A DNA stretch of 64,000 nucleotides from positions 6,752,001 through 6,816,000 of the forward strand of contig OZ242214.1 in the NCBI GenBank assembly GCA_965206595.1. Direction: 5' to 3'. Both the position numbers and the translations under genes were made by a program. Below the pieces are notes generated by a model. That model worked only from the letters and a program-made list of their open reading frames with translations, was not told the DNA's origin and ran no database searches. This document shows, one piece after another, positions 11,849 to 35,585 of the stretch; the first letter of the stretch is position 1, and each line of letters begins with the position of its first letter. This DNA is from Candidatus Latescibacterota bacterium. Lineage in GTDB: Bacteria > Latescibacterota > UBA2968 > UBA8231.

Positions 11849-11999
11849 TTCCCACCTTCTCAAGATTCGGACCAAGCTGCTGTCGCGGGACTCTCGCCCC
11901 GGCGCACAGATTAACTGGTTTGGATTGAAACCGCGATTCCCCCCCCCCCCCTCGAGATGCAGCGGCGGCCGAATTCACGCGGAATTGCGCGCGCGGGAA

Positions 12000-17995: not shown

Positions 17996-19579
17996 ATGAC
18001 CGACAGCAACAGCGACAGCGACAGCAAGGACCCCAGACGACGCCCGCCACGCATCCGCCTCAACTCCGGCGCCTGGAGCCCCCTGGTCGACATGATCGAC
18101 GTCTTCCCCGGGCACCGCGGCTCCAGCCGCCATGGCGAGATCGAGCTCTACGACGCCCCGCTGGGGATCCGCTTCGAGATCGAGGAGGCGCTCAAGTCCG
18201 AGCCGATCCTGCAGGCGGAGAAGGAGTGGGAGGGCATTCACCTCTCGCCGCTCTACGTCTGGAAGCGGGACGGGCGCCTCCACATGCTCTACGGCAGCGA
18301 GGCGGGCCAGTGTTACGCGGTCAGCGACGATGCCTACAACTGGACGCGGCCCGAGCTCGACGAGGTCGAGTTCAGCGGCTCGACCGCGAACAACCTGATC
18401 TCCAGCCCGTGCGAAGGCACCACTGGGATCTTCGAGGATCCGAGCGCCCCTCCCGAGGAGCGCTTCAAGGCGATGGGGGGCCGCATGTACTGGTGCGACC
18501 CGGAGACCGGGGAGGAGCTCTCCGGAGAGGAACCCTCCCGGCGCATCAAGGCGGAGCAGGAGCAGGCGGATTACGCAGGTCCCAGGGCGGAAATCGCCGG
18601 CGACATGCTCGCCTGGACCTCACCCGACGGCCTGCACTGGACGCCGCTGGCCGAGCCGCTGGCGAGGCGACCCGTCAACGGCGGCATATCGGCGCGTTAC
18701 GACGAGCACCGCGGCAACTACTTCGCTTACATCCAGCTGATGGGGTACCCGGCCGGACTCCTCGACGGCATCGGCGTCAACCGGCTCGAGCAGGGGATGC
18801 AGATCCGCACCATCGGCTTCTCGCGCACCGACGACTTCACCCGCTGGCCCGCTCCCAAGCTGGTCCATCACCCCGACAGCGAGGATCCGCCCGACATCAG
18901 CTTCTACGGGGCAAACTACTTCCCGTACCCGGGCCGCGACGACCTGCACGGCATGCTCATCCCGGTCTACCACCAGATCGCCAGCACCATCGACGGCCAG
19001 ATCGCCTTCAGCCGCGACGGCCTCTACTGGTCCCGCCCCGAGCGCCGGCCGATCCTGCCGCTGGGCGCCGAGGGGGACGGCGACGAATGCATGGCCCACT
19101 TCTGGCGCAGCGGCATCGTCGAGCTGCCCGACGGGTACTGGGCCTGTCCGTACGCGGCCTTCTCGGTCATCCACGACTGCCCTGAAGCGAAGTTGCCCGA
19201 GCTCTTCCCGTCGCGGCAGCCGCAGCAGATCCGCTGGGCGCGCTGGCGCCCGCACCGGTTCTGCGGGATCCGCGCCGAGACCGAAGGCAGCTTCTCCCTG
19301 CCTTCCCTGTTCCGCGTCCACGACGAGCTGCGCCTCAACTACCGCTGCGAACCGGGGGGCTGGATTCAGATCGAACTGCTCGAGAAGCTGCCGTCGCTGA
19401 TGCTCCCCGACGCCGACCCGCTGCCGGGGTTCACCTTCGACGAGTGCGACCGCCTGACGGGCGACTGCGAGGACCGGGTGGTGACTTGGAACGGCCGTTC
19501 CGACATCTCCGCGGCCGGCGAGGCGGTCGGCATCCGGGCGCGCATGCTCGGGGCCAAGCTGTTCGCCTACCGGGTGTGA
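17996..19579 (+). CDS. Beta-propeller glycoside-hydrolase-like protein
   Basis: RBS ggagg; repeated Asp-box-like motifs 'SDDAYNW', 'SPDGLHW', 'SRDGLYW'. Confidence 0.7.
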   Translation: MTDSNSDSDSKDPRRRPPRIRLNSGAWSPLVDMIDVFPGHRGSSRHGEIELYDAPLGIRFEIEEALKSEPILQAEKEWEGIHLSPLYVWKRDGRLHMLYGSEAGQCYAVSDDAYNWTRPELDEVEFSGSTANNLISSPCEGTTGIFEDPSAPPEERFKAMGGRMYWCDPETGEELSGEEPSRRIKAEQEQADYAGPRAEIAGDMLAWTSPDGLHWTPLAEPLARRPVNGGISARYDEHRGNYFAYIQLMGYPAGLLDGIGVNRLEQGMQIRTIGFSRTDDFTRWPAPKLVHHPDSEDPPDISFYGANYFPYPGRDDLHGMLIPVYHQIASTIDGQIAFSRDGLYWSRPERRPILPLGAEGDGDECMAHFWRSGIVELPDGYWACPYAAFSVIHDCPEAKLPELFPSRQPQQIRWARWRPHRFCGIRAETEGSFSLPSLFRVHDELRLNYRCEPGGWIQIELLEKLPSLMLPDADPLPGFTFDECDRLTGDCEDRVVTWNGRSDISAAGEAVGIRARMLGAKLFAYRV

Positions 19580-19730
19580 CGGACCAGTTGGCCCGTGTTG
19601 TTGGCTGATGGAACGTAATGGGCACTTCGCCCACGCTCCCTGACTTCAACGAGGCCTTTCGTTCCCCAGGGGGGGCGTATGAGCCTGCGACAAGGGTGGA
19701 TCCCTGGGTGCCGTCGGCGTCGAAATACTC

Positions 19731-24158
<4,428 letters not shown>

Positions 24159-24343
24159 TCTTGCAAGGCAACTCGTTGTGTAGCAATACGAAAAAGGGGG
24201 GATGGCGCGAACCGTATCCAACTCCTGTTGTATAGAGTCCCTTTCGCCACACCGCGGCTCAAATCTCGTTTAACTTCAATCAGTTAAGCGGTGCGCGAAC
24301 CTCCCCGTGTTTACCTGACCGCTTATGGTTCGCACCATCTTTC
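24159..24343 (-). promoter_or_regulatory. CRISPR leader
   Basis: AT-richer non-coding segment between cas2 and the first repeat, with gcgcgaacc at 24205 and 24293 and an inverted ggttcgc at 24327. Confidence 0.8.
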
Positions 24344-24634
24344 TCAGACGATCAATGTTCCGTTCAGGTCGGCAGTTGGCTTAGCCCCAACGTGCTCTAC
24401 ACGCCTCTTCCAATTTGCACCGAGGAAATAATACCTGAGACTGTCGGTTTCTGGATTGATGATGTCCTCAAGCTGCACCTTCAGGGCGGCCCATTGCGCC
24501 GGCTCCACCTCGATCTCAAACACTGAAAACTGCACTCGTTGTCCAAAATCGCGGCACCTCTTAGCGACACGTCTTAACCGGCGTACGCCGCCATCGGATG
24601 TCGTCGAGACATCGTACGTAACGAGAACCATCAT
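24344..24634 (-). CDS. cas2: CRISPR-associated Cas2
   Basis: 'VLVTYDV', 'RLRRVAK', 'GQRVQFSVFE'. Confidence 0.97.
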   Translation of the reverse strand: MMVLVTYDVSTTSDGGVRRLRRVAKRCRDFGQRVQFSVFEIEVEPAQWAALKVQLEDIINPETDSLRYYFLGANWKRRVEHVGAKPTADLNGTLIV

Positions 24635-24689
24635 GGCTGTTTATTTTCCTCACGGGGCGAATATGGTTCTGAAGGGTACGCTAGTAGTC

Positions 24690-25724
24690 CTATTTCCATA
24701 ACCAAGGCGGGTGAGCGTCTAAGTCGCCTCGAAGGTGCCGAGCCAGTAACTGCGCTTGTAGGTACGCGACCAATCCGAGGGGTGCCTGTTCCCCAAGAAA
24801 AGGATGACGACGCTCTACGCGCTTTCGCTCCTGCCAAGCACTGAGAACTGTCTTGCGAGCGCCGTCGCTCATTAAGACGCTGCCGCCTTCTCGGGTTTGG
24901 AAGTCTCTGGTGCGTACTTGCCGACGATTGATTAGCGATAGCGCGAGCCGGTCAGCCAAGACTGGCCGCAGCTCTTCCATAAGATCTAGCGCGAGACTCG
25001 GACGGCCGGGCCGATCTCTATGAAAGAAGCCTACGGCCGGATCCAAGCCCACGCTTTCGGCGGCCGATCTGCAATCGTGGACGAGAAGGGTATAGAGAAA
25101 CGAGAGCAGGGCATTCATCGGGTCACGCGGCGGCCGGCGGTTGCGGCCGGCGAATGCCATCTCTGGGTCGGGTACGCGGATCAGGTGGCCAAAGACGGAG
25201 AAATAGAGCCGTGCGGCCTCGCCTTCAAAACCGCGCAGCCTATCGATACTGTCGTGGCCGTCGCTGATGCGTTGCACAATCTGCCGAAGGCGATTCGTCG
25301 CGGCGGACATGGCTTCGCGGCCAGAAGGCTCAAGCTCGTCGCCGTAATCTCGCTGCGCTCTTTGCAGGACGCTTCTCTGATTGGAGATCTTGCCGACGAG
25401 AATGCTGCGGACGATCTCTTCTGGGTCGTCGCTGGCTCTATATTGGGCGCGACGCAGCAGCACGTTGCCAGAGACCGGTCCCTCGACCCGGGCTTGGAAT
25501 CGGCCGAATCGACTCAAGAGTACAAAGACGATGCCACCGGCGGCACATGCCTGGATCAGGGATGGAGATATATAGATGCTACCAAACACCACTACGGATC
25601 CCAGCATATGGAAGGGCACCCTTATACGTTCTTCATCCTCAATTTTCGCGACCAGATTCTCGCCGTCCTTGGTCAGACGTGCTTCAGGCGTAGTAACGTA
25701 TAGCGTATTAAGCAACCGCCTCAT
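24690..25724 (-). CDS. cas1: Type I-C Cas1
   Basis: 'MRRLLNTLYVTT', 'LRGFEGEAARLYF', 'RPSLALDLMEELR'; ATGA overlap with cas4. Confidence 0.97.
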   Translation of the reverse strand: MRRLLNTLYVTTPEARLTKDGENLVAKIEDEERIRVPFHMLGSVVVFGSIYISPSLIQACAAGGIVFVLLSRFGRFQARVEGPVSGNVLLRRAQYRASDDPEEIVRSILVGKISNQRSVLQRAQRDYGDELEPSGREAMSAATNRLRQIVQRISDGHDSIDRLRGFEGEAARLYFSVFGHLIRVPDPEMAFAGRNRRPPRDPMNALLSFLYTLLVHDCRSAAESVGLDPAVGFFHRDRPGRPSLALDLMEELRPVLADRLALSLINRRQVRTRDFQTREGGSVLMSDGARKTVLSAWQERKRVERRHPFLGEQAPLGLVAYLQAQLLARHLRGDLDAHPPWLWK

Positions 25725-26425
25725 GGGTTTTCTCCAGGCTCGGCAAGGTGCGATGCCAGGGTACGCATTCGCCATGCGAGAACCGACCGGTCCATCGCCT
25801 TCGGGCGACACTGTTCGAACAGAGAACACCCACCGCACTTGGCCGCTTCGTATTCGGCTGGGGGTGTGCGGTTTTGCGCAAAGAGTGTCGCTACCTGCAC
25901 GACTGTCGTCTCGGTCAGGGTGCGGAGCTCGGCGTCAAAAGACACTTCCTTCCGCCGTTTGGTTTGGCCGTAGTAAAAGGCCCCCATCGGCACTTCTGTA
26001 CCGGTCATTTCCTCAAGGCACAGTGCTTGGGCGCAGAGTTGCACCTCGTCGGCGCGATGCACTTTGGCCTTGCCGCGTTTGAACTCGACCGGGAACGGGG
26101 TCGGACCTGTCCGGCTTTCGCGGAACTCGACCATATCGGCGACGCCTGTAAGATTGAGCCGAAGGCTGTAGATCGGGAGCGACATTACTTGGCGCACACC
26201 TGCCCTGCGCCGACGCCCTGCTTCGTCAATGACTTGATGCAGTACTCGACCTTCAGCGGTAAACCGATTTTCCTCCCAAAGCCGTTCCAAGTGGATCAGA
26301 GCGCATTGCCTCATACAGTACACCGCATGTTGCAGTGCCGACACGGGTATCGGCTCCATTCCATGGTCCGATCCATCCCCCTCCCTAGGGGGGGACCGCC
26401 CGAACTGCGCTTCACTCATCGTCAT
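25721..26425 (-). CDS. cas4: Cas4 exonuclease (alternative start 26359)
   Basis: 'SALQHAVYCMRQ', 'GVADMVE', 'PVEFKRG', 'QLCAQALCLEEM', and C-terminal CxxCxxxxxC Fe-S ligands. Confidence 0.95.
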   Translation of the reverse strand: MTMSEAQFGRSPPREGDGSDHGMEPIPVSALQHAVYCMRQCALIHLERLWEENRFTAEGRVLHQVIDEAGRRRRAGVRQVMSLPIYSLRLNLTGVADMVEFRESRTGPTPFPVEFKRGKAKVHRADEVQLCAQALCLEEMTGTEVPMGAFYYGQTKRRKEVSFDAELRTLTETTVVQVATLFAQNRTPPAEYEAAKCGGCSLFEQCRPKAMDRSVLAWRMRTLASHLAEPGENP

Positions 26426-26468
26426 CTCCGCTCCGTTTGTTTCATTCCGTGCCCCGCACAGGGGCGTC
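26365..26468 (-). repeat. Degenerate CRISPR repeat - 42 nt - degenerate repeat (mini-array) at the cas7/cas4 junction
   Basis: 26468-26439 GACGCCCCTGTGCGGGGCACGGAATGAAAC (24/32 to the array repeat, 2 gaps) and 26396-26365 GTCCCCCCCTAGGGAGGGGGATGGATCGGACC (21/32, ungapped). Confidence 0.7.
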
Positions 26469-27412
26469 TATGTGATCGGCTCGACGACCTCGACATTTGC
26501 CGGCATATCGTCCAAGTCGAGCTCTACGCGATAGTCAGCAAAGCTGCGGGCAGGCGGCAGGGTGCCTTCGCTACCATCCGCTTCTGCACGCTGCACACTC
26601 ACCCGCTCAAAGAGCCTATGCGCGGGCGCGTTGCCCAAGGCACTGGCGTGCTTAAAGGCAATGAGCCGACGAGCAACCATTTCGCCGCGGGCGGCCGAGT
26701 GGTCGTGCTCGAACATCTGCGTCAAGGCATTCCAGAGGACGTCGAGATCGTCCGGCGAAAAGCCGGTGCGTTCGGCGAGCTTGGCGGAGACAAAGCCGTG
26801 CGCCCGATACAGCCCGTAGGGCACAATATGTTTGCGACCCATGGTGCGGTGCTCGGTCCGCTCGTCGCCCGCGTTTTCATCGCTGGCATCCTCGCGCTCC
26901 TGCTTTTCGTTTTCGTTGGTCGCTGCCATGCGCGTAATGGACACTTCGAGTGGCACGATCTGATCGATGGACCGCGCAAAGGTCATCTGTACCGGCCCGC
27001 GGACCTGGCCGCAGTTGATGCCGGTACTCATTACCGCACCGAAGGTGCGCACATCAAAGAAATTGTCGCACATGAAGCCGCGCAGTTTATCCATCTCCTC
27101 GTCGCTTTGAGGGCTTAGTTTCTTGCTGCTCTCGACCTTCTTGTCGTTGGGGCGCACAACCCGATACGCCTTCCGGTGTTGCTCGTTGAGCAGAGCACCT
27201 TCCTGGACGTAGATCGCGTAGCCGGACTCGTCGCCCTTAGCCAGTTCGACGAAATTGCGCACCTTGCGCTTGAGGCAGACATCCGTGACCAATCCTTGGT
27301 TCGTTTCCGGGTCGAGGCGCGGGAGGTTTCCTGCATCCGGGTCGCCGTTGGGGTTGCCGTTGTTGACGTCGAACAGATAGACGAAGTCGTAGCGATGGTT
27401 GAGTGCGGTCAT
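26468..27412 (-). CDS. cas7: Type I-C Cas7 (Csd2)
   Basis: 'NGNPNGDPDAGNLPR', 'TDVCLKRKVRN', 'FDVRTFGAV', 'GQVRGPVQ'. Confidence 0.97.
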   Translation of the reverse strand: MTALNHRYDFVYLFDVNNGNPNGDPDAGNLPRLDPETNQGLVTDVCLKRKVRNFVELAKGDESGYAIYVQEGALLNEQHRKAYRVVRPNDKKVESSKKLSPQSDEEMDKLRGFMCDNFFDVRTFGAVMSTGINCGQVRGPVQMTFARSIDQIVPLEVSITRMAATNENEKQEREDASDENAGDERTEHRTMGRKHIVPYGLYRAHGFVSAKLAERTGFSPDDLDVLWNALTQMFEHDHSAARGEMVARRLIAFKHASALGNAPAHRLFERVSVQRAEADGSEGTLPPARSFADYRVELDLDDMPANVEVVEPIT

Positions 27413-27819
27413 TCTTCGTTCTCCTTTTCTTCTTTGCCCTCCTCACTGGGGGCGGACTTGGTGTAGAAATCGTTTTTCTGGTGGTAGTAGCCGATGGCGA
27501 AGAGGGCCTGACGCTCCATCGTCAGCGTCGCCACGAACAGCTCATCGGGCGTGGCGCACCCATAGATCTGGGCGATTGCGTTGTCGATATAGCGATGAGT
27601 TGCAGGCCGGTCTTTCCGCAGACGCGACAGGTGGTTCATGGCGTTGCGTTGCAGGAGGGGAAATACAGACCGCGGCGTCGCCGAAGCCGCCCCGTAGTAC
27701 TTATCGCATATCGTGGCGTTGACCTTGCCACCGAGGGCCTGCGTTTGCGCGTACTCAAAGCAGGCAAATAGCCGGCCCAGCAAATAGCCGGGGTCGGCGT
27801 TTGTGGGATCGAGGGACAC
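27409..27819 (-). CDS. cas11: Cas11c small subunit, internally translated from cas8c
   Basis: In-frame GTG (VSLDPTN...) preceded by AAGGAG inside cas8c, as established for type I-C systems. Confidence 0.75.
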   Translation of the reverse strand: MSLDPTNADPGYLLGRLFACFEYAQTQALGGKVNATICDKYYGAASATPRSVFPLLQRNAMNHLSRLRKDRPATHRYIDNAIAQIYGCATPDELFVATLTMERQALFAIGYYHQKNDFYTKSAPSEEGKEEKENEE

Positions 27820-29232
27820 GATAAAATTCTCCTTTGTTAAATGGTCATCCTTGCGCCTATTTCGGCAGACCACGGCTTTGAGTAAGGCTACGCGCAGGTC
27901 CGTTATGGCCTTATCCGACCGCAGTCGCATGAGAATCGTGGATAACAACGTCTGCGGATAACGGCGACCTGTCAGGATGGCGCGTAGCATATCCCCAGCG
28001 AGTTGGGGAGGGATATGTTCGTATCGGTTTTTTACCTTCGTCGTGGCGGTCTCAAGTAGGCAGCGCCGAACGCTTGGCTGCTCTTGGCGCGGCCGCGGGT
28101 CGAGGCGCATATCCCGATAGTGCCAGAGGATATGCTCGGCAAACGTCGCAAAGTCGTCCTCCAGCCAGAAGCGAATCGAAATACGCGCTGCATTGGGGGC
28201 CAATCCCAGCACGTGGAAGCGCACACCTTGGGGCAAATCCGGGCGGATTTCCTCCATGGGACGGCCCCTTGCCATTTTTTCGAGAATGGGCTTGATGGCC
28301 TGCTCGCTTGTCGCGTCGTCTGTGTCATTGGTGTCATTGAAGGCGAAGGAAAATATTGCCTCGCTTTGCGCCACTGCTTCTGCCTCCGAGCCATCGGCCC
28401 AGAATACAGTCGAGGCGTCACCGAGCTGCACTTTGTTCTCGTTGGTACGGAGAAGGTGGTTGAGCACAGTCGTATAGGCGGCGGCAGCGTCCTCGCTTAC
28501 GGGTGCATTATCGCCCTGTTTGTGCCCATAAGACTCAAAGGCGTCGAGATTGAAAGAGACGATGGATGCGCCGGAAGACTGTGCGCCACGCACCCCCTTG
28601 ATCGCGGGATGCAGCCGGGCGATAGGGGATCTCTCTCCGGTCACCAAGCAAACGGCTTTGCCCGGTTCGTGATCCTGATTCATCTGCAAGGCCCAGAGTT
28701 GACGTGCGGCCTCGCGGTCGTGTATGAAGTTGTGCTCTCCCTCCAGCCGGAACACCACATTGGCCCCCTTCATTTCGTCTGGCCAGCCACGCGCGTCGAA
28801 GTACTCTGGCTTCCACCATTGCAAGAAACGATAATAAGCCACAAGTCCTGCGTCGCTTTCGTTTTGCAGAGCAAAGTGCCTGTTCTGAAAAGCCTCGTAC
28901 TGATTCTCTACCCGCTCGGCACGCCGCTCTCTGGTGTCTGGGGTCTCGCCTTCCAAGTCTTCCATTGCACCAAGCGAATACGATGCCTTGTCCCAAAGGA
29001 AGTTCGGCACAATTTTGACCGTCCGCTTCTCTGGTCGCGGAACTGAGTGTCGCGGGGCTACGGGTTTCTTCCCTGAGTGGTCTCGTAGGTCCACAGGCGG
29101 ACCATCGGACTGGCCATCGGCCTTCAGGACGACGCAATAGTCGATCCGCTCATTGGAATAGCCAATCGGCGGCACTTTGTTCTCTGTTGCGAGCCGGTGA
29201 TAGGCCCGCTCAAGAGAAGCCAGAATGCTCAT
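27409..29232 (-). CDS. cas8c: Type I-C Cas8c (Csd1)
   Basis: 'PNFLWDK', 'CLVTG', 'IVSFNLDAFESYG', 'LAPNAARIS', 'GYLLGRLFA', 'FAIGYYHQ'. Confidence 0.97.
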   Translation of the reverse strand: MSILASLERAYHRLATENKVPPIGYSNERIDYCVVLKADGQSDGPPVDLRDHSGKKPVAPRHSVPRPEKRTVKIVPNFLWDKASYSLGAMEDLEGETPDTRERRAERVENQYEAFQNRHFALQNESDAGLVAYYRFLQWWKPEYFDARGWPDEMKGANVVFRLEGEHNFIHDREAARQLWALQMNQDHEPGKAVCLVTGERSPIARLHPAIKGVRGAQSSGASIVSFNLDAFESYGHKQGDNAPVSEDAAAAYTTVLNHLLRTNENKVQLGDASTVFWADGSEAEAVAQSEAIFSFAFNDTNDTDDATSEQAIKPILEKMARGRPMEEIRPDLPQGVRFHVLGLAPNAARISIRFWLEDDFATFAEHILWHYRDMRLDPRPRQEQPSVRRCLLETATTKVKNRYEHIPPQLAGDMLRAILTGRRYPQTLLSTILMRLRSDKAITDLRVALLKAVVCRNRRKDDHLTKENFIVSLDPTNADPGYLLGRLFACFEYAQTQALGGKVNATICDKYYGAASATPRSVFPLLQRNAMNHLSRLRKDRPATHRYIDNAIAQIYGCATPDELFVATLTMERQALFAIGYYHQKNDFYTKSAPSEEGKEEKENEE

Positions 29233-29891
29233 CGCAGTACCTCCGGCGAATTGGGTGAAGGAATTTCGACAACCCCCTGTTTCATTTCGGCGCGAAAGAA
29301 AAGCGGCTGTCGCTCGTTTTCGTGGTCAATATCGTAGAGCATCCAGCCCAAGTCACGGCTTTCATCAATCGCTGGCGGTAGGTCGTCTTCGTGCTCAATG
29401 AGTGTGTAGTCTGCAGCAAATTCTCGCGTTCCAAGACAGGGCTGGTGAAAGCACTGCCCGTTCCTAGCGCGGCGATTGAAGATGTCGAGGTGTTTGCCCA
29501 CGTTATCGCTTTCGCCCGCTTCGTCCGTCATGTCAAAGTGCGCTTCAATGGCGTACTCAACGTTGACCAAGACGGTTGCGGCGCGTTGCTGGCGATCATC
29601 CTCAACTTTGGTGTAGAGGGTCTCAATGGAGCCCCTGTTTTTCGCCGTGCGGACAGACCCCATGGGAATTTTCTTGCCGACTTCGTTGCGCCGGATCGAC
29701 TGGAACCGAATCGGCTTGAGAACGTGAAGGCGGTCAATGCGCCAGACGATGTCCGGCTTCCAGTGAATGGCCTCCAAGATGCCGCGTGCCGCCGAAGGCG
29801 TCATTACGTCGTAGGATACGCGCTCGACTTTCATTTCCGGCCGAGTGAAACAGGCGTATTCGCCTCCCACGCGCAGACGTATTCCGAACAT
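29229..29891 (-). CDS. cas5c: Type I-C Cas5 (Cas5d, pre-crRNA processing nuclease)
   Basis: 'GEYACFTRPEMKVERVSYDVMTPSAARGILEAIHWKP', 'PCLGTREF'. Confidence 0.97.
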   Translation of the reverse strand: MFGIRLRVGGEYACFTRPEMKVERVSYDVMTPSAARGILEAIHWKPDIVWRIDRLHVLKPIRFQSIRRNEVGKKIPMGSVRTAKNRGSIETLYTKVEDDRQQRAATVLVNVEYAIEAHFDMTDEAGESDNVGKHLDIFNRRARNGQCFHQPCLGTREFAADYTLIEHEDDLPPAIDESRDLGWMLYDIDHENERQPLFFRAEMKQGVVEIPSPNSPEVLR

Positions 29892-29921
29892 GGACGAACT
29901 CCTTTTCTGTGGTATTGTGGT

Positions 29922-29949
29922 ATTTCAATACCCTCCGCACGGGGGGCAC
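29922..29949 (-). repeat. Isolated degenerate CRISPR repeat between cas3 and cas5c
   Basis: GTGCCCCCCGTGCGGAGGGTATTGAAAT, 25/32 to the array repeat with gaps, retaining the hairpin and ATTGAAA end. Confidence 0.75.
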
Positions 29950-29957
29950 CCCTACCA

Positions 29958-32180
29958 TTATATTAGCATCACCTCATCGCCGAGCGCATCCGCGTCCTCC
30001 CAAAGGAGGCCGACATCTTCTTGATAGAGGCTTTGAGTGAAGAGAACGGCGAACTGGTCACCGAAGCGTTCCTGTGCCTCAAAATAAACGTGATTATTTT
30101 TTACAAGTTGTTCTCGGAAGCGAGGATAAACTTGCACAATATAAGGTTGGAGCCGTCGCGCCACCCCGCCAACTCGTTCAACATATGCGAGATCACGCAT
30201 GGCCTTACGCGCTTCCTCTTCTCGGGCGACGATCACCGGCTCAAGTCCACTCTGAATCAGGCGAAACGTCTCGCCAACTTCGCGGAAGGAGAACGAAGTG
30301 CCGTGCTTACTCATCTTGAACTTTTGCAAGAAGTCATCGCCAAGCCCCTCTCCTTTGCGCCAGTACACCTCTTGGAAGTAGTCTTCCATAGCCTCTGGCG
30401 ACAGCAGGTCGTCGTGGCGACCCATGATGCGCTCCATATCTCCGGCAAGCTGGCGCAGTTCAGGCGGACTTTGATGTTCCTCGGATTGGAACGCGGTGAC
30501 AATGCTGTTTGCAACATCTCGTCGACCCTCCCTATTACACCGCCCAGCAGCTTGGGCAATCGAATCAAGCCCTGCCTCGGCCCGCCAAACCCTCGGAAAA
30601 TCCAAATCAACGCCTGCCTCAACCAGCGAGGTAGCAATCAATCGGCACGGCTTGCCTGCCTTTAACCGCTGGCGCACATCCGCAAGGATGCGGCGGCGAT
30701 GCACTGCGTATTGCCGCGTACTCAGATGCACGACGCCCTCAATGTCTGCTTCACGGGCTTGCCGAAAGAGGTCCAAGGCATGTTTCCGACTGTTGACAAT
30801 AACCATGCCTTGCACCGTTTGCGTGAGAGCGGCGCATAGGCTCTCGTCGCTTAGTACGCCCTCGTGGGCGATGGTGACGCGGGCAAGCCTCTGGTGCAAG
30901 CGCGGCGGGTCAGGTGCGAGTTCGCGGACTTGGTCAAAGCCCCCTTCGAAATCAGGTGCCTTGAGTGCCGGTTGGGTCGCGGTGCATAATACTATTGAAG
31001 AACCATAGTTACGAGCTAGTTCATCAAGAACAGCAACCGAAGGCCGTAGTACATGTAGGGGGATAGTCTGCGCTTCGTCGAGGACAATGACCGCACGAGC
31101 CAAATTATGCAGCTTGCGGCACCGCGACGGCCGATGAGAAAACAGGCTCTCAAAGAGCTGGACGTTGGTGGTCGCGACGATGGGGGCCGCCCAGTCCTCC
31201 ATGGCGAGCCGCAGTTTATCGGCTCCCTCCCGATTTGTGGACTTACTTTCGTCAATAGACGAATGATGTTCTAGGACGACGCCCTCACCCAGCACATCGC
31301 GGAAAATCGCTGCGGTCTGGTCAATCACTGAAGTAAAGGGAATAGCATAGATGATGCGCTCAAGCCCGTGTGCTTTGGCATGGTCGAGAGCAAAGGCGAG
31401 GGAAGTCAGCGTTTTGCCGCCGCCGGTCGGTACATTGAGCGAGAACAGGCCCGGAGAGTAATGGGCTTGAGCCCGAACATGCTTCAGAATTTCGCGGCGT
31501 AGGTGATTGACCTTCCCTTTGCTATCAAATCCTGCGAGGTGATCATTGAGCCTATCGCGTAGCGGATCAACTATTTCTGGGAGCGTCGGCCAGTCGCGGT
31601 CAACGGCCTCGCCTTTTGCATCAGCGTAAAAGCCCTCGGTGTCGCGGAAGTCTGCGTCAACGAGGCACGAGAAGATCATCCGTGTCAAAAAGGAGAGCTG
31701 AAACACCGTCGTCTCACGGTCTTTCCCTAATGTGAACCCTTCGGGCCAAAGACCAGTAGCATCTGGCCGAATTTCCAGATCCCAAGTCGAGTCAAGCGGG
31801 TCGAGTGTCTTTTTTAGCCGCTCGTCAAGCGAATTGAGTGAACCGGTCCCGCTTTGCATATCCGGCAGGCCAGCGTGGTGCCCGGCGATGGCATAAGCGA
31901 TGAGTTGCGCCATTGCCCGATCCATATCTGTTTCTACCACGGTGTTGACAATTTTTGCGCCAGCGGTCGCGTGATCCACCGCTGGGCCGCCGTGCAGGCG
32001 CTTCTGGAATGCTTCTGTGTATTTGCCAAGATCATGAAAAAGCCCGGCCAAGCCTGCGGCCTTACCTGTTCCAAACTTGGCTCCTCGTGCCTCCGCCCCG
32101 GCTTGAACCTTAAGCAGGTGCTCCCGTAGCGGCTGCCAGTATTCTTTCGACTGATCTGCGAGAGAGTGAGCATAGTACAT
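29958..32180 (-). CDS. cas3: Cas3 HD-nuclease/helicase
   Basis: Starts 'MYYAHS'; 'HDLGK', 'HHAGL', 'LVDAD', 'VPTGGGKT', 'LDEAQ', 'QAAGRCNREG'. Confidence 0.97.
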   Translation of the reverse strand: MYYAHSLADQSKEYWQPLREHLLKVQAGAEARGAKFGTGKAAGLAGLFHDLGKYTEAFQKRLHGGPAVDHATAGAKIVNTVVETDMDRAMAQLIAYAIAGHHAGLPDMQSGTGSLNSLDERLKKTLDPLDSTWDLEIRPDATGLWPEGFTLGKDRETTVFQLSFLTRMIFSCLVDADFRDTEGFYADAKGEAVDRDWPTLPEIVDPLRDRLNDHLAGFDSKGKVNHLRREILKHVRAQAHYSPGLFSLNVPTGGGKTLTSLAFALDHAKAHGLERIIYAIPFTSVIDQTAAIFRDVLGEGVVLEHHSSIDESKSTNREGADKLRLAMEDWAAPIVATTNVQLFESLFSHRPSRCRKLHNLARAVIVLDEAQTIPLHVLRPSVAVLDELARNYGSSIVLCTATQPALKAPDFEGGFDQVRELAPDPPRLHQRLARVTIAHEGVLSDESLCAALTQTVQGMVIVNSRKHALDLFRQAREADIEGVVHLSTRQYAVHRRRILADVRQRLKAGKPCRLIATSLVEAGVDLDFPRVWRAEAGLDSIAQAAGRCNREGRRDVANSIVTAFQSEEHQSPPELRQLAGDMERIMGRHDDLLSPEAMEDYFQEVYWRKGEGLGDDFLQKFKMSKHGTSFSFREVGETFRLIQSGLEPVIVAREEEARKAMRDLAYVERVGGVARRLQPYIVQVYPRFREQLVKNNHVYFEAQERFGDQFAVLFTQSLYQEDVGLLWEDADALGDEVMLI

Positions 32181-32203
32181 TATTGCACTGCACCTTGCGC
32201 CCG

Positions 32204-33661
32204 TTAGTCGAACAGCTTCGGCAGCTGGTTGTTCAGCGTGATGATGGTGAAATACCCGAAGAAGGCGCAGGACCAGACGATGGCTGCGAAGCGGACCACC
32301 GACATCTTCAGCCCGGCTCCGAGGATGCGGTTGTTCATCCACAGCAGCAGCACCGAATAGAGCAGCATCACCCCCCCGTTCAGCGAGGCGCTGAGCACCA
32401 GCAGCACCAGCGGCTGGGTGAAGCCTGGAACCGCCAGGCCCGCCAGCATGATGAGGCAGCCGAGCGCAATCTGCCCCCACAGCAGGGCGAAGTAGAGCCG
32501 GTTGTCGGGCCAGCGCTCGCTGTCGCGCAGCCAGTTCACCTTGATGATGTCGGTCGAGATGCGGGCGCAGGCGTCGAGAAGCCCCAGCTCCGTCGTCAGC
32601 AGGATGGCGACTCCCATCCACAGGAAGGCGTGCTCGAACAGGGCCCCGTAGCGCTCGCCGATGAACTCCCCCTCGACGCGGATGAAGCCGATCCCGCTTC
32701 CGAGCTCCGGCAGGTGGCGGGTGGTCGCGTAGGCGATGAGCGACAGCATCATCAGCGAAACGACGGACAGCATGTAGAAGCTGAGCAGGTGCTCCCTGTT
32801 GGCGGCCTTCCACCAGGCGCGCCAACGGCTGGCGTTTTCCGGTGTCGCCTCGAAGTGGTAGCCGACCCCGGCGACGACCTCTTCCCTGCCTGTCAGCGGG
32901 CTCGTCAAGCGCCCGGCGAAGCGCCCCATGGCATACCCCTTCTCGCGCACGTAGTCGCTCTGCACCAGGTTCATCGTCCCCCCGGCCCCGGCGAACGCTA
33001 TGGCGCCGAGCAGCAGGGGCAGCTCCATGCCCTCCGGGACGTGGCCGACGTTGAGGATGCCTGCGAACATGTCGGCGACGTGGGTCATCCTCACGACGAG
33101 GAAGAACAGCGCGATCATCGCCAGGAAGATCGCGGCGATCAGGACCATCTGGATCTTCTCGACGGTGTTGTAGACCACCGGGCCCAGGGTCAGGGCCAGG
33201 CCGACGGCGATCAGGCTGGCGATCGAGTAGGCGACCCGCACGCCCTCGCCGCCTCCCAGCTCCCAGGTCATAATCGTCGCCGCTCCCGAGGCCCAGCCGG
33301 GCCACATCCAGGGGACGATGTTGCAGAGCAGGAAGATGCCCGCCCAGTGCTTCCACAGGCGGCAGAACCCGGTGACCGCGGTCTCGCCGGTCGCCAGGGT
33401 CCAGCGCTCGATCTCCATGTTGATGAAGTACTGGGTGGTGATGCCGACCATGCAGGCCCAGAACACCGCGAAGCCGAACTTGTAGGAGATGTAGGGCCAG
33501 AGCACGAACTCGCCGCTGCCGATCGAAAGCCCGAGCAGCAGCAGGCTCGGGCCGATCAGCCTCTTCCAGGGAGGGGCTTCCGGCAGGTCGCGGTACGAGA
33601 CCGGCGGCAGGTTCGAGCTGGGAATGACCTCGTGCGGGACGGTGCCGCCCGGCATCGTCAC
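32204..33661 (-). CDS. Nramp-like / APC-superfamily membrane transporter
   Basis: 'GPSLLLLGLSIGSGEFVLWP', 'ERWTLATGE', and about 11 TM helices. Confidence 0.75.
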   Translation of the reverse strand: MTMPGGTVPHEVIPSSNLPPVSYRDLPEAPPWKRLIGPSLLLLGLSIGSGEFVLWPYISYKFGFAVFWACMVGITTQYFINMEIERWTLATGETAVTGFCRLWKHWAGIFLLCNIVPWMWPGWASGAATIMTWELGGGEGVRVAYSIASLIAVGLALTLGPVVYNTVEKIQMVLIAAIFLAMIALFFLVVRMTHVADMFAGILNVGHVPEGMELPLLLGAIAFAGAGGTMNLVQSDYVREKGYAMGRFAGRLTSPLTGREEVVAGVGYHFEATPENASRWRAWWKAANREHLLSFYMLSVVSLMMLSLIAYATTRHLPELGSGIGFIRVEGEFIGERYGALFEHAFLWMGVAILLTTELGLLDACARISTDIIKVNWLRDSERWPDNRLYFALLWGQIALGCLIMLAGLAVPGFTQPLVLLVLSASLNGGVMLLYSVLLLWMNNRILGAGLKMSVVRFAAIVWSCAFFGYFTIITLNNQLPKLFD

Positions 33662-34746
33662 TTCCAGGCCAGCAGGGGATGGCTGCGGTTCGCCATCGGC
33701 AGCTCCACCCGCCCCCCGGTGATGTGCGACTCGTAGGCCCCGAGGATCATCTCGAGGGCGGCGACCGCGTCGGAGGCGCTGGAGACCGGCTTGCGGTCGG
33801 TCTCTAGCGCTTCAATCAGGTCGGCGATCGCCAGCTGGTTGCCCGTCCCCAGGGAGCCGTCCCCTGGCTCGAGCAGCGGCACCCAGGCCTGGCCGGGATC
33901 GCCGGGCATGAAGGTCCCGTGGGGATACAGCATCGCCCCGTCCGGGCTCCCGCCCCGAAGCGCCAGGATGCCGCCGCTGCCGACGATCTCCAGGCCCATG
34001 CGCATGCCGTCGCCGCCGGAAGCCTCGACGCGGGAATCGAAATGGCCGCTGACCCCGGACTGGAAGGCGAAGTAGGAGTAGATGCTGTCCCCGGCCACCG
34101 ATCCTATCGGCTCGGTCGGCTCGCGCACGTCCGCAGGGGTGGCCTCCCGGCCCTCGACGCTGACGTGCCCGGACATCCAGCGCACGTCGCCGAGGAGAAA
34201 CCGCATCATGTTGAACAGGTGGGTCCCCAGCACCATCATGTCCTCGCCGCCGCCGCGCCGGTCCTGCTTGCCGTGGGCGTACACCGCCTGCACATCGCCG
34301 ATCCTGCCGCCTTCAAGCGCCTCCCTTACGGCGCGCGCCTGCGGCAGGTACACCCCCTGGTGGGCTACGGCGATCTTCTTTCCCAGCTGCTCGGCCCTGG
34401 AGACCAGAAGGTCTCCGTCGGCCAGGTTGGAGGTCATCGGTTTCTCGCAGTACACGTGGGCTCCGGCCTCCATGCAGGCGGTCACCAGCTCGACGTGGCA
34501 GCCGGGCCAGCGCGGGCCGACGCTGACGATGTCGAGCTCCTCGCCGGCGAGCATCCGCTCGTGATCGGCATAGGAGCGCGGGGCACCGGTCTCCTGCTGC
34601 GCCTTTGCCCGGCCCTCCTCGTCCGGGTCGCTCACGGCGACGAATTCGACGCCCTCGTTTCCCTCGTACGCCAGGTGCAACCCGTGGCCGAAGCCGCCTG
34701 CCCCGGTGTGGCCGATCGCCGCGGCCTTGTAGGTCTTTTCCGTCAT
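33658..34746 (-). CDS. Gfo/Idh/MocA oxidoreductase
   Basis: Rossmann N-terminus, 'HVYCEKP', 'LGTHLF'. Confidence 0.9.
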   Translation of the reverse strand: MTEKTYKAAAIGHTGAGGFGHGLHLAYEGNEGVEFVAVSDPDEEGRAKAQQETGAPRSYADHERMLAGEELDIVSVGPRWPGCHVELVTACMEAGAHVYCEKPMTSNLADGDLLVSRAEQLGKKIAVAHQGVYLPQARAVREALEGGRIGDVQAVYAHGKQDRRGGGEDMMVLGTHLFNMMRFLLGDVRWMSGHVSVEGREATPADVREPTEPIGSVAGDSIYSYFAFQSGVSGHFDSRVEASGGDGMRMGLEIVGSGGILALRGGSPDGAMLYPHGTFMPGDPGQAWVPLLEPGDGSLGTGNQLAIADLIEALETDRKPVSSASDAVAALEMILGAYESHITGGRVELPMANRSHPLLAWK

Positions 34747-34811
34747 GATTCACCCTTTCCGGTTCGTTGCAAAGGCGGTCAATTTAGGCGCGCCCGTCTT
34801 GACCTGCCAGA

Positions 34812-35585
34812 GTGCGGCGGGCGATTTTCCGGTCCTTGAAACCGCGCACCCTGTTCAAAAGACTCCACGACTGTTACGGCCCCCAGGGCTGGTGGCCGAC
34901 GACCCCGGAAAACGAGATCACTCCCCGGTACTACCCGGGTGCGACACGGCGCCGCTTGAGCGACCGCGAGCGCTGGGAGATCGTCGTCGGGGCGATCCTC
35001 ACGCAGAACACCTCCTGGCGCAACGCCGAGCAGGCGCTGACCGCCCTCGCCCGGCGGCGGATCCGGACTCCCCGGAAACTGTGCGGGGTACCTGTCGAGA
35101 AGCTCGCAGAAGTGATTCGATCTTCCGGGTACTACAACCAGAAGGCGGAGCGGTTGCGCGGACTCGCAGGCCACGTGGTTGAGAACTACGGGGGCAGCAC
35201 CACCGCGATGCTGCGCCGGCCCACCGCCTCCCTGCGCGGCGAGCTGCTCTCCCTGATGGGGATCGGACCCGAGACCGCGGACTCCATCCTGCTGTACGCC
35301 GGCGGCCATCCCTGTTTCGTCGTCGACGCCTACACTCGGCGAATCTGCTCCCGGCTCGGCTGGGTCGATAACGGCGCCGGCTACGAGGAGCTGCAAACCC
35401 TGTTCACCTCGGCGCTGCCGGCCGACGCCGGTCTGTTCGAGGAGTACCACGCGCTCCTGGTGCGGCACGCGGTAGAACGCTGCCGCGCCAAGCCGGAATG
35501 CCGCGGCTGTTGCCTGCGCCGCGGCTGCCGGTTTCCCGGAGACCAGAGAGCGGCTCGCGAGCGGGCGGCTCACGGAAAGGACTGA
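34812..35585 (+). CDS. Endonuclease III-related HhH-GPD protein
   Basis: 'GAILTQNTSW', 'GYYNQKA', 'GIGPETADSILLY', 'VVDAY', and a C-terminal Fe-S Cys cluster; start uncertain. Confidence 0.9.
   Translation: MRRAIFRSLKPRTLFKRLHDCYGPQGWWPTTPENEITPRYYPGATRRRLSDRERWEIVVGAILTQNTSWRNAEQALTALARRRIRTPRKLCGVPVEKLAEVIRSSGYYNQKAERLRGLAGHVVENYGGSTTAMLRRPTASLRGELLSLMGIGPETADSILLYAGGHPCFVVDAYTRRICSRLGWVDNGAGYEELQTLFTSALPADAGLFEEYHALLVRHAVERCRAKPECRGCCLRRGCRFPGDQRAARERAAHGKD

What the first reader, a model, noticed from the sequence alone, without database searches (positions are those of the whole stretch)
24639..29949. CRISPR-repeat-like hairpins punctuate the cas operon at module boundaries: candidate Cas5c self-processing/autoregulatory system
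Seen: degenerate copies of the array repeat lie in the cas mRNA sense orientation at cas3|cas5c (29949-29922), at cas7|cas4 (two copies, 26468-26439 and 26396-26365) and weakly at cas1|cas2 (24661-24639). None was noticed at the translationally coupled cas5/cas8/cas7 or cas4/cas1 joins. The three strong copies keep the C-rich/G-rich stem and a GAAA-type or similar 3' handle despite many substitutions. Established: in type I-C, Cas5d cleaves at the 3' base of the repeat hairpin, and repeat-like regulatory RNAs (CreA/CreR type) are known in other type I loci. Inference: Cas5c cuts its own polycistronic mRNA into cas3 | Cascade | adaptation segments, setting stoichiometry or giving feedback control. 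A multi-site layout in I-C is not something I recognise as described.
Basis: partly seen in the sequence, partly recalled or inferred. Interest (0 to 1): 0.85.

Follow-up and report, generated by a model that had tools for sequence, protein, structure and literature searches.

The report
CRISPR repeat copies between cas genes
Worn copies of the CRISPR repeat sit between the genes of this type I-C cas operon, as they do in related operons of the same phylum, which hints that the system's own RNA-cutting protein may trim or gate its own messenger RNA, though this is not yet shown.

Summary
The window carries a complete type I-C locus on the minus strand. The elements at cas3|cas5 (E1), cas7|cas4 (E2a, E2b) and cas1|cas2 (E3) are decayed copies of the array repeat in mRNA sense. 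I add a fifth (E4) in the 3' end of cas8c.

In the window alone support is modest. Homology settles it: the same sites in related loci hold much better copies.

- Sense repeat copies at gene junctions occur in 8 of 12 loci of the window's I-C lineage.
- They occur in 9 of 9 loci of a second I-C lineage of the phylum, one of them in the same genome. There the next start codon usually follows the repeat directly.
- They occur in 2 of 52 loci outside the phylum.

- E1 is the first repeat of a CreR-type mini-array. That mini-array is intact in sister loci and truncated here.
- E1 also lacks the bases Cas5c needs.
- E2b lies inside the cas4 coding region.
- No DNA targets were found for the window's elements.
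- No RNA ends could be read.

Cis action of Cas5c on the cas transcript is the best reading (about 0.4), against co-opted relics (about 0.3).

The parts
19731..24158 (-). CRISPR array. About 65 copies of a 32-nt type I-C repeat, transcribed in the same direction as the cas genes. The last repeat is split by an insertion.
24344..24634 (-). cas2
   Evidence: TIGR01573, E 1.6e-18
24639..24661 (-). E3: almost fully decayed repeat remnant just upstream of the cas2 start codon.
   Evidence: Score 3 in the window. It aligns by position with a near-intact solitary repeat in L004 (score 25) and with graded remnants in 9 other relatives. It is deleted in L008 and L009.
24690..25718 (-). cas1c. The start is placed by homology near 25718; the listed ORF runs on to 25838.
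25721..26425 (-). cas4, including a lineage-specific N-terminal extension of 22 residues.
   Evidence: All 12 relatives keep an upstream start codon behind a Shine-Dalgarno-like run. L008 and L009 lack the internal start. Indels are in frame.
26365..26396 (-). E2b: degenerate repeat copy (hairpin plus handle that keeps U-G-G-A-U after the stem). It lies inside the cas4 coding region.
   Evidence: 21 of 32 ungapped. Fit score 11 here, 18 in L001 and L003. Coding status.
26397..26438 (-). Spacer-like 42 nt between E2a and E2b. It holds the ribosome-binding site and start codon of cas4.
   Evidence: No TTC-flanked target in the window or genome.
26439..26470 (-). E2a: degenerate repeat copy that begins on the cas7 stop codon. 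It has a 5-bp G+C hairpin (26465-26451) followed by a handle that keeps C-G-G and the last 6 bases.
   Evidence: Hairpin pairs counted.
26468..27412 (-). cas7 (csd2)
   Evidence: TIGR02589, E 2.3e-114
27424..27457 (-). E4: repeat-hairpin-like segment in the last codons of cas8c, upstream of the cas7 start.
   Evidence: Fit score 9 here, 13 in L001-L003. Present in 6 of 12 relatives, absent as an in-frame indel in 4, different in 2.
27409..29232 (-). cas8c (csd1)
   Evidence: TIGR01863, E 3.6e-163
29229..29891 (-). cas5c, the pre-crRNA endonuclease of type I-C.
   Evidence: TIGR01876. E 1e-85 to solved Cas5c chains.
29921..29950 (-). E1: degenerate repeat copy between the cas3 stop and the cas5c start. 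The hairpin (29946-29931) has one C.A mismatch. The handle lacks the two G's after the stem.
   Evidence: (score 14).
29958..32186 (-). cas3. The true start is near 32186. The listed 1132-aa ORF is an open frame that runs into the upstream gene.

Best explanation
WHAT THEY ARE (shown). The elements are genuine, partly decayed copies of the locus's own CRISPR repeat. They lie in mRNA sense at cistron boundaries of a complete type I-C operon. Two I-C lineages of this phylum share the habit. In better-preserved relatives, near-intact repeats sit directly upstream of the start codons of cas5, cas7, cas4, cas1 or cas2.

HOW THEY MOST LIKELY WORK (inferred). They are transcribed within the polycistronic cas RNA and fold into the repeat hairpin. 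Cas5c normally cuts at the 3' base of that hairpin and keeps hold of the 11-nt handle. It would therefore bind these sites and, where stem and the bases after the cut site survive (E2a and E2b in the window), cut them.
- The upstream cistron would be left with a 3' hairpin.
- The next cistron would get a short, Cas5c-occupied leader that holds or abuts its ribosome-binding site and start codon.
- Relative output of cas3, Cascade and adaptation genes would then depend on how much free Cas5c/Cascade protein there is.

THE cas3|cas5 COPY (E1) HAS A SECOND HISTORY (shown by homology). It is the first repeat of a CreR-type mini-array. In sister loci this mini-array has its own promoter, a spacer and a terminator, and a TTC-flanked partial target on the -10 box of the cas5 promoter. 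In the window it is cut down to the repeat plus a few bases.

MY ODDS.
- Repeat-derived: 0.9.
- E1 belongs to the same element family as the CreR first repeat: 0.75.
- Cis action of Cas5c on the cas RNA somewhere in this clade: 0.5.
- Still operating at the window's own worn copies: 0.35-0.4.
For: - Repeat likeness in the window: E2a, E1 and E2b are the three best fits to the repeat in 17 kb, both strands.
- Enrichment: of 25 non-array hits scoring 14 or more in 60 loci, 17 lie in about 15 kb of the cas3|cas5, cas7|cas4 and cas1|cas2 junctions. 2 lie in about 428 kb of coding sequence.
- Better copies at the same sites in relatives.
- Junction counts. Window's lineage: sense hits in 8 of 12 loci, 15 hits, 0 antisense. 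Second lineage (37-nt repeat, including the second I-C locus of this same genome, L188): 9 of 9 loci, 14 sense hits, 1 antisense. Other loci of the phylum: 0 of 4. Outside the phylum: 2 sense and 4 antisense in 52 loci.
- In the second lineage the next start codon mostly follows the repeat end with no gap.
- Handle conservation: 92% against 73% for the stem-loop in 12 copies.
- Hairpin pairs. E2a: 85.7% of cells paired against 29-60% when the partner is slid; 3 of 5 pairs change on both sides. E1 short forms: covariation score 0.311 against 0.192 in shuffles, reached by 3 of 500.
- Cas5c in the window is close to solved, active Cas5c proteins. The long, diverse array argues for an active system.
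- Cas5c cuts after nucleotide 21 at the stem base and reads the bases just downstream (passages of PMC8524198). E2a keeps C-G-G and E2b keeps U-G-G there.
- CreR layout in sister loci. The best TTC-flanked match of the spacer in each whole locus lies 39-52 nt upstream of cas5, with 9 of 10 seed positions, in L004, L005 and L006. A terminator-like hairpin of 13-15 pairs follows the spacer in all three. An 11-of-12 promoter-like site overlaps the target in L004 and L006.
Against: - No RNA ends were seen. The two RNA runs are contigs from a 90-95% relative and cannot show ends or strand.
- The covariance model of intact repeats does not find the window's elements.
- E1 lacks the two G's after the stem in all 8 short-form loci. 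By the B. halodurans data it should be a poor substrate.
- E2b is under protein-level constraint. Its hairpin is not kept beyond the closest relatives.
- The E2a hairpin is deleted in L004, L008 and L009. E3 is deleted in L008 and L009. E4 is absent from 4 of 12. The copies are therefore dispensable.
- Folding energies of the junction stretches are no better than shuffles (z from +1.0 to -2.5).
- Handle conservation could equally reflect its use as a ribosome-binding region.
- Sense bias could come from the way copies arise rather than from selection.
- The related loci are kin, so counts overstate independent events.
Confidence: 0.4

Rival explanations
1. Co-opted relics. Repeat copies get inserted at gene junctions now and then, by recombination or copying from the nearby array in the same orientation. 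Junctions are the only places where insertions are tolerated. The copies then decay. What is kept is kept for ordinary reasons: the handle and the bases after it serve as ribosome-binding region and leader, and E2b serves as Cas4 coding sequence. Cas5c plays no part.
For: - Graded decay and repeated loss at every site.
- E2b codes for a conserved peptide motif, with in-frame indels.
- The conserved stretch after E2a and E1 is the ribosome-binding region.
- In the second lineage the cas7|cas4 insertion is flanked by a duplicated 8-13 nt that restores the old overlapping stop and start. This looks like an insertion scar.
- Window copies are invisible to the repeat model.
Against: - 29 sense against 1 antisense junction hits at about ten different sites in two lineages.
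- Some compensatory change in the E2a and E1 stems.
- Near-intact copies persist at the same junction across several species of the second lineage.
- Copies partly follow the repeat variant of their own array: L195 and L196 at cas4|cas1, and the L004 copy at cas1|cas2.
Confidence: 0.3
2. Plain RNA hairpins. The G+C stems act without Cas5c as stabilisers of the upstream message's 3' end, or as a 5' stem of a transcript started near the cas3 stop. Either would set different lifetimes for operon segments, as intercistronic stem-loops do in other operons (recalled general knowledge).
For: - Stems are kept with changed sequence in 6 of 8 short-form E1 loci and in about 6 of 7 E2a loci examined.
- E1 keeps its stem although it has lost the Cas5c recognition bases.
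- A promoter-like site overlaps the cas3 stop in L004 and L006.
Against: - No U-run follows the stems, and no terminator-like site is called at E1, E2a or E2b.
- The promoter-like site is not called in the window.
- The handle, not the stem, is the best-kept part in the second lineage.
- Folding z-scores are weak.
Confidence: 0.15
3. Trans-acting guide. E2a, the 42-nt spacer-like stretch and E2b are a working mini-array. Its processed RNA loads into Cascade and represses a promoter by partial pairing (CreR/CreA type), or merely soaks up Cascade.
For: - Two repeat-like units lie 74 nt apart start to start, with a spacer-like stretch in the 20-60 nt range of known mini-arrays (section 22 of bioRxiv 10.1101/2023.03.03.530964).
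- Sister loci carry a CreR-type unit at cas3|cas5.
- creA-like elements are reported for I-C (passage of bioRxiv 10.1101/2023.03.10.532045).
Against: - In the window, the best TTC-flanked matches reach 9-10 of 15 positions. 40 real spacers used as control reach 9-12.
- In the whole 7.05-Mb genome they reach 11-12 of 15, against 11-14 for 30 real spacers.
- The spacer-like stretch is conserved as ribosome-binding site, start codon and coding sequence of cas4.
Confidence: 0.1

Closest known systems
CreR / CreA crRNA-like regulators (degenerate mini-CRISPRs that guide Cascade to repress cas or toxin promoters). Seen: abstract and passages of bioRxiv 10.1101/2023.03.10.532045.
   Same: They are repeat-derived elements inside a type I cas locus. 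The sister loci L004-L006 show the full layout at cas3|cas5: repeat, spacer, terminator, and a PAM-flanked partial target on the effector promoter. The paper states that creA-like elements were found by hand for I-C too.
   Different: The window's copy is truncated. It has no second repeat or terminator, no promoter and no target. The other copies are not separate transcription units but parts of the coding operon, abutting start codons. No DNA target was found for them.
Standalone repeat-like sequences, mini-arrays and single repeat units in CRISPR-cas loci. Seen: abstract and sections 20-22 of bioRxiv 10.1101/2023.03.03.530964.
   Same: [quoted passage not shown] The downstream repeat is often degraded. 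Single repeat units exist.
   Different: That survey reports peaks next to cas3 in I-E, I-D and I-F1 and next to cas6 in I-B, in long intergenic regions. The term I-C does not occur in its main text. Here there are several copies per operon, in short junctions, all in sense, in I-C. Its supplementary tables, which I could not open, may list such loci.
Negative autoregulation of the Myxococcus xanthus dev (type I-C) operon by DevT, DevR and DevS (Cas8c, Cas7, Cas5). Seen: passage of the review PMC8616872.
   Same: A type I-C Cascade-like subcomplex lowers the level of its own transcript without spacer-guided cleavage. The mechanism is given as unknown.
   Different: No repeat copies in that operon are mentioned in the passage read. 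I did not examine that locus.
RNA anti-CRISPRs (Racrs): solitary repeat mimics in phages. Seen: abstract of PMC10651486 in a search listing.
   Same: Solitary repeat units bind Cas proteins without guiding.
   Different: Those are viral and act against the host system. These are in the host's own operon and in the coding transcript.
Engineered use of the Cas6-family nuclease Csy4 with its repeat hairpin between cistrons to insulate genes in synthetic operons (recalled, not looked up).
   Same: It matches the proposed working: a CRISPR endoribonuclease cuts a repeat hairpin placed between cistrons.
   Different: It is man-made. My searches found no natural case described.

Membership tests
Copy of the locus's own CRISPR repeat | Similarity to the array repeat above the background of the same kind of sequence. 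| tested here: met
   E2a 14, E1 14 and E2b 11 are the top three fits in 17 kb. Scores of 14 or more occur twice in 428 kb of cas coding sequence of 60 loci. Not met for E3 alone (score 3). Not met with the covariance model.
Copy of the locus's own CRISPR repeat | Positional homology to clearer repeat copies in related loci. | tested here: met
   Scores of 15-25 at the same junctions in L001-L007.
CreR/CreA-type mini-array | Two repeat-like units flanking a spacer-like stretch of 20-60 nt. | tested here: inconclusive
   Met for E2a/E2b (42 nt between them). Not met for E1 in the window, which has one unit only. Met at cas3|cas5 in L004-L006, where the second unit is reduced to the 5' arm of the terminator.
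CreR/CreA-type mini-array | Spacer partially complementary, from the PAM-proximal end, to a PAM-flanked site at a promoter. | tested here: not met
   In the window and the whole genome the best matches do not exceed those of real spacers. Met in L004, L005 and L006.
CreR/CreA-type mini-array | Own promoter and terminator, that is, a separate small transcription unit. | tested here: not met
   No promoter-like or terminator-like site is called at E1, E2 or E3 on the minus strand of the window. Present in L004 and L006; L005 has the terminator only.
Cas5c (Cas5d) substrate | Stem of about 7 pairs with a pentaloop, a 2-nt 5' overhang and an 11-nt 3' overhang (PMC8524198). | tested here: inconclusive
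   E2a has a 5-pair stem, pentaloop and 12-nt tail. E1 has 5 of 6 pairs and a tail 3 nt short. E2b has about 7 pairs with one mismatch and an 11-nt tail.
Cas5c (Cas5d) substrate | U22-G23-G24 just after the cut site, needed by B. halodurans Cas5c and less so by S. mutans Cas5c (PMC8524198). | tested here: inconclusive
   E2b keeps U-G-G. E2a has C-G-G, and C occurs at this place in natural repeats of alignment A2. E1 lacks both G's. E3 and E4 do not keep them.
Cas5c (Cas5d) substrate | Cleavage by Cas5c after nucleotide 21. | not testable with these tools
   RNA runs are held only as contigs.
Intrinsic terminator | G+C stem followed by a run of U. | tested here: not met
   None of the 11 terminator-like sites coincides with E1-E4. 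The sequences after the stems are A-rich.

The most novel reading that the evidence does not exclude
In two type I-C lineages of this phylum, CRISPR repeats have been taken over as punctuation of the cas operon itself. Cas5c cuts its own polycistronic mRNA at repeats placed directly before start codons and stays on the 11-nt handle. Possibly with Cas7 spreading over the next 30-40 nt, it would gate translation of each downstream cas gene. That would be an RNA-level feedback tying Cas protein output to the balance between crRNA and free Cascade subunits. It would be distinct from the DNA-level repression by CreR, and it coexists in some loci with a CreR unit at cas3|cas5.
Probability: 0.3. Interest if true: 0.8.

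Novelty: new variant of a known kind. Interest (0 to 1): 0.65.

Why it matters
Repeat-derived RNAs that let CRISPR systems regulate themselves (CreR, CreA, the long tracrRNA) are a recent and growing theme. All act through DNA binding at promoters.

A natural operon in which the crRNA-processing nuclease also processes or gates its own messenger would add a second, post-transcriptional route of self-control. It could explain how type I-C systems, which have no separate Cas6, set the very unequal subunit amounts that Cascade needs. It would also give a natural counterpart to the engineered use of CRISPR nucleases for insulating genes in operons.

The second-lineage loci, one of them in this same genome, offer near-intact junction repeats. 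These make the idea directly testable with one purified protein and a few RNAs.

Even if the copies are only relics, they record repeated movement of repeats out of the array into the operon. They also show decay of a CreR unit by deletion.

Tried and rejected
1. Rfam scan of 19000-35000 at E up to 1. Only the array repeats (as CRISPR-DR9, below its gathering score) and one chance hit appeared. Nothing at the elements.

2. Covariance model R1 on nine relatives. The output was swamped by array repeats (749 matches, 300 listed) and was not used for the junctions. I replaced it with my own fitting-alignment scan.

3. RNA evidence. 20 of the 24 listed runs hold the stretch or part of it; two are on record as RNA. 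Laid, the RNA runs gave 15 and 4 contig pieces at 90-99% likeness. They cover parts of cas1, cas4, cas7 and cas8, with a break at 26382-26410. Contigs show neither ends nor strand, and DNA carry-over is possible. No conclusion.

4. Metagenome scan with Cas7. The best relative is 74% identical, so it added no close relatives. Those 80 loci were not analysed further.

5. Trees of Cas3, Cas5 and Cas7, to decide whether the short or the long cas3|cas5 form is ancestral. The clade of 12 is unresolved. Some rows carried frameshift artefacts, and the Cas1 tree did not finish. The direction is left open.

6. Folding energies of the junction stretches against shuffles: z between +1.0 and -2.5, not informative.

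7. My first junction statistic drew null windows that ran into the junctions and so understated significance (seen). I replaced it with fixed score thresholds.

Coordinates come from the rulers. That resemblance stays unquantified.

10. Literature. A search needing 4 of 5 terms on repeat-like sequence, cas operon, polycistronic, Cas6 and mRNA processing found 0 papers. A looser one found only the known crRNA-like regulator papers. Supplementary files (Figure S7 of 10.1101/2023.03.10.532045; supplementary files 2-4 of 10.1101/2023.03.03.530964) were not readable and may already list type I-C cases.

Full report
THE LOCUS. The window holds a complete type I-C system on the minus strand. NCBIfam names cas3 (HD plus helicase), cas5c, cas8c, cas7, cas4, cas1c and cas2. 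An array of about 65 copies of a 32-nt repeat follows cas2 after a leader of about 185 nt. The repeat read in the direction of the cas genes has the usual I-C shape: a 2-nt overhang, a 7-pair G+C stem, a pentaloop and an 11-nt tail (alignment of 40 distinct I-C repeats). Three gene starts needed correction.
- cas3 starts near 32186, 30 nt after the end of an upstream gene. The listed 1132-aa ORF is just an open frame.
- cas4 starts at the upstream start codon at 26425 or 26419.
- cas1 starts near 25718.

ARE THE ELEMENTS THERE, AND ARE THEY MORE THAN CHANCE? They lie at the stated coordinates.

In this G+C-rich window simple identity to the repeat is a poor test. 77 sites outside the array reach 18 of 32, although E2b at 21 is the best on the minus strand.

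A covariance model of intact I-C repeats scores true repeats at 55 bits. In the rest of the window it finds only the E2a hairpin (9.7 bits, E 1.8), while two unrelated sites reach 15-16 bits.

A gapped fitting alignment of each locus's own repeat does better. In the 17 kb around the window's locus, E2a (14), E1 (14) and E2b (11) are the three top hits on either strand. Over 60 I-C loci there were 25 non-array hits of 14 or more:
- 6 fall in cas3|cas5;
- 10 in cas7|cas4;
- 1 in cas1|cas2;
- 6 downstream of cas2 (mostly worn array ends);
- 2 in about 428 kb of cas coding sequence;
- none in 152 kb upstream of cas3.

E3 scores 3 and is nothing by itself.

RELATIVES SETTLE IT. A Cas7 search gave nine loci from the same phylum at 83-99% identity, and a whole-genome search gave two more. 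The aligned junctions show the same elements in every state of wear.
- E2b scores 18 against the local repeat in L001 and L003.
- L007 carries an additional near-intact copy beside E2a.
- L004 has a near-intact solitary repeat (score 25) exactly where the window has E3. It carries repeat variants peculiar to L004's own array.
- L002, L004 and L005 have cas3|cas5 copies that score 16-18.
- The alignments also turned up a fifth element (E4, 27457-27424). This repeat-hairpin-like 21-24 nt lies in the last codons of cas8c. It is present in 6 of 12 loci, missing as an in-frame indel in 4, and different in 2.
- L006 has in addition a three-repeat mini-array ending 25 nt before cas3.

WHAT E1 IS. At cas3|cas5 there are two forms. 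Eight loci, the window among them, have a short form of about 70 nt. Four have a long form: about 185 nt in L004, L005 and L006, and about 145 nt in L002.

In L004, L005 and L006 the long form reads as a CreR-type unit.
- A promoter-like site overlaps the cas3 stop (called in L004 and L006).
- A good repeat copy follows, then a spacer-like stretch.
- Next comes a 13-15-pair terminator-like hairpin whose 5' arm starts like a repeat.
- Last comes an 11-of-12 sigma-70-like promoter in front of cas5. It is called in L004 and L006 but not in L005.
- The best TTC-flanked match of the spacer in each whole 17-kb locus lies 39-52 nt upstream of cas5, on the -10 box. It matches 9 of the 10 seed positions and 13 of the first 20 non-sixth positions. 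The mismatches at positions 6 and 12 are of the kind type I effectors ignore. The first base differs between L004 and L005 in both spacer and target.

L002 has lost the target. The window's short form keeps only the repeat copy and a few bases that resemble the start of the spacer. It has no terminator, no promoter call and no target. Trees could not tell which form is older.

All eight short forms lack the two G's that follow the stem in a real repeat. According to the passages I read in PMC8524198, these bases are the main recognition point of B. halodurans Cas5c, though S. mutans Cas5c is more tolerant. Even so, six of the eight keep a stem with different sequences. The covariation score on the named structure is 0.311 against 0.192 in shuffles, reached by 3 of 500.

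WHAT E2 IS. E2a starts on the cas7 stop codon. It keeps a 5-pair stem, a pentaloop, C-G-G after the stem and the last six bases of the handle. Over seven loci 85.7% of stem cells pair, against 29-60% when the partner strand is slid. Three of five pairs change on both sides. The shuffle controls are only moderately exceeded: 26 of 500 for pairs with changes on both sides, 48 of 500 for the covariation score. The stem is deleted in L004, L008 and L009.

The 42 nt that follow hold the ribosome-binding site and start codon of cas4.

E2b has a stem and U-G-G-A-U after it, but it lies in codons of a 22-residue N-terminal extension of Cas4. Three facts show the extension is translated:
- all 12 loci keep the upstream start;
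- two lack the internal one;
- indels are in frame and a peptide motif is conserved.

So E2a/E2b has the form of a two-repeat mini-array that has been built into the cas4 translation start. No TTC-flanked target for it, or for the stretches after E1 and E2b, exceeds what real spacers find by chance. This holds in the window (9-10 of 15 against 9-12) and in the whole genome (11-12 against 11-14).

THE WIDER PATTERN. This result changes the weight of the finding. The phylum search also returned a second, distant I-C lineage (Cas7 44-51% identical by tblastn, 37-nt repeat) in nine loci, one of them elsewhere in the window's own genome (L188).

Scoring each junction with the locus's own repeat gave the counts below. 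For three loci without an array in the fetched stretch I used the repeat of the nearest relative. The threshold was 12 for 32-nt repeats and 13 for 37-nt repeats.
- Window's lineage: sense hits in 8 of 12 loci (cas3|cas5 6, cas8|cas7 3, cas7|cas4 5, cas1|cas2 1) and no antisense hit.
- Second lineage: 9 of 9 loci (cas3|cas5 1, cas7|cas4 5, cas4|cas1 5, cas1|cas2 3) and one antisense hit.
- Four further I-C loci of the phylum: none.
- 52 loci outside the phylum: two sense and four antisense, all in long intergenic regions and probably separate CreR- or CreTA-like units.

In the second lineage many copies are nearly intact (scores up to 29 of 37). The start codon of the next gene usually follows the last base of the repeat. 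In two loci the start seems to lie within the handle. The cas7|cas4 insertion there is flanked by a duplicated 8-13 nt that recreates the formerly overlapping stop and start.

Over 12 such copies the 11-nt handle is 92% identical to the local repeat, against 73% for the stem-loop part. These loci are kin and the counts are not independent. Still, about ten different sites in two lineages are involved.

HOW IT MOST LIKELY WORKS. Shown:
- the elements are repeat-derived, sense-oriented and at cistron boundaries;
- they are recurrent, with the handle under constraint and the stems partly compensated;
- E1 is homologous to a CreR repeat.

Inferred: because the copies are part of the cas transcript, any that still look like a repeat to Cas5c will be bound and cut. 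This would separate cistrons, cap the upstream one with a hairpin, and leave Cas5c (and perhaps Cas7) on the leader of the next one, over or beside its ribosome-binding site. That would couple Cas protein output to free Cas5c/Cascade.

I put this at about 0.5 for the clade and 0.35-0.4 for the window's own worn copies, where E2a and E2b are the candidates.

The main rival, at about 0.3, is that these are insertion relics kept only where they serve as leader, ribosome-binding region or coding sequence. Two lesser rivals are Cas5c-independent stabilising hairpins (0.15) and a trans-acting guide from E2 (0.1).

Nothing here shows cleavage. The only RNA data are contigs from a relative.

COMPARISON WITH WHAT IS KNOWN. 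Regulatory crRNA-like RNAs from degenerate mini-arrays are established for I-B, I-E, I-F1 and V-A, and were noted by hand for I-C. The long-form unit of L004-L006 is a member of that kind on the features I could test.

I did not find the following described:
- several sense copies inside one operon, in short junctions, abutting start codons, in type I-C;
- a CRISPR nuclease processing its own cas mRNA in nature.

This rests on the searches, and on the absence of the term I-C from the main text of the Shmakov preprint. The unexplained negative autoregulation of the M. xanthus I-C dev operon by its Cas8c, Cas7 and Cas5 proteins (passage in PMC8616872) is a possible relative of the proposed mechanism.

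VERDICT. I rate it a new variant of a known kind, interest 0.65.

Noticed in passing
Own genome, locus L188 (G000:C1:2110000-2127000; cas genes on the minus strand of the fetched stretch). Junction copies lie at about 8025-8061 and 6160-6196 of L188 as fetched.: A second, distant type I-C locus in the same genome. Cas7 is 46% identical by tblastn (54% in the genome search), the repeat is 37 nt and the array has 16 repeats. Repeat copies lie at cas7|cas4 (score 22 of 37, start codon directly after it) and at cas1|cas2 (score 18). The last 10 bases of its repeat equal those of the window's repeat, so the two Cas5c proteins might read each other's sites.
   Followed up: partly
window 19779-19820 against 29932-29973: The last spacer plus last repeat of the array resembles the cas3 3' end plus E1: 74% over 42 nt, family D6. 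The similarity runs across the spacer-repeat border, as if the array end and the cas3|cas5 element were once copies of one another. It is not seen in the array ends of L001, L002, L003, L005, L008 or L009. The statistic I planned was dropped.
   Followed up: partly
window 19731-19797: The terminal repeat of the array is split by an insertion of about 34 nt between its stem and its handle.
   Followed up: no
window 24111-24126: Right after the leader-proximal repeat, the 11-nt handle is repeated once more after a 5-nt gap. An over-long spacer of about 63 nt follows. Duplicated handles also occur at cas4|cas1 in L196 and L198.
   Followed up: no
window 20033-20263 = 20840-21070; 21375-21443 = 21444-21512: Segmental duplications inside the array: a 231-nt block (three spacers) is present twice at 100% identity, and one spacer-repeat unit is duplicated in tandem (families D7 and D3).
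   Followed up: no
window 32204-33661, minus strand: A 485-aa ORF ends 30 nt before cas3. It has a hydrophobic C-terminal part and no Pfam family at E up to 0.01. Each relative has a different gene upstream of cas3, so the I-C locus sits in different contexts.
   Followed up: partly
L006 2992-3089: A three-repeat, two-spacer mini-array in sense lies directly upstream of cas3. Its last repeat ends 25 nt before the gene.
   Followed up: no
L188, L195, L198, L200: cas7|cas4 junction: The inserted repeat is flanked by a direct duplication of 8-13 nt that contains the old overlapping cas7 stop and cas4 start. L197 and L199 show the uninterrupted overlap. This looks like an insertion scar. The mechanism is unknown.
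   Followed up: partly
L002 4963-7965: The cas8c match spans about 3.0 kb instead of 1.8 kb. The left part of this locus (cas3 82%, cas8c 79% identical to the window) is much more distant than its right part (cas7 98%). This suggests an insertion and a mosaic origin.
   Followed up: no
window 57048-57078 (+) and 11918-11931 (+): These are the two best matches of the I-C repeat model outside the array (15.6 and 15.1 bits, E about 0.02). They lie far from the locus and are probably chance.
   Followed up: no
window 26377-26393: DNA contigs of two other studies carry the L001-type version of E2b at six clustered positions, while the flanks agree (table 3). The window's E2b is thus a patch variant with a more perfect hairpin and four changed residues in Cas4.
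   Followed up: no
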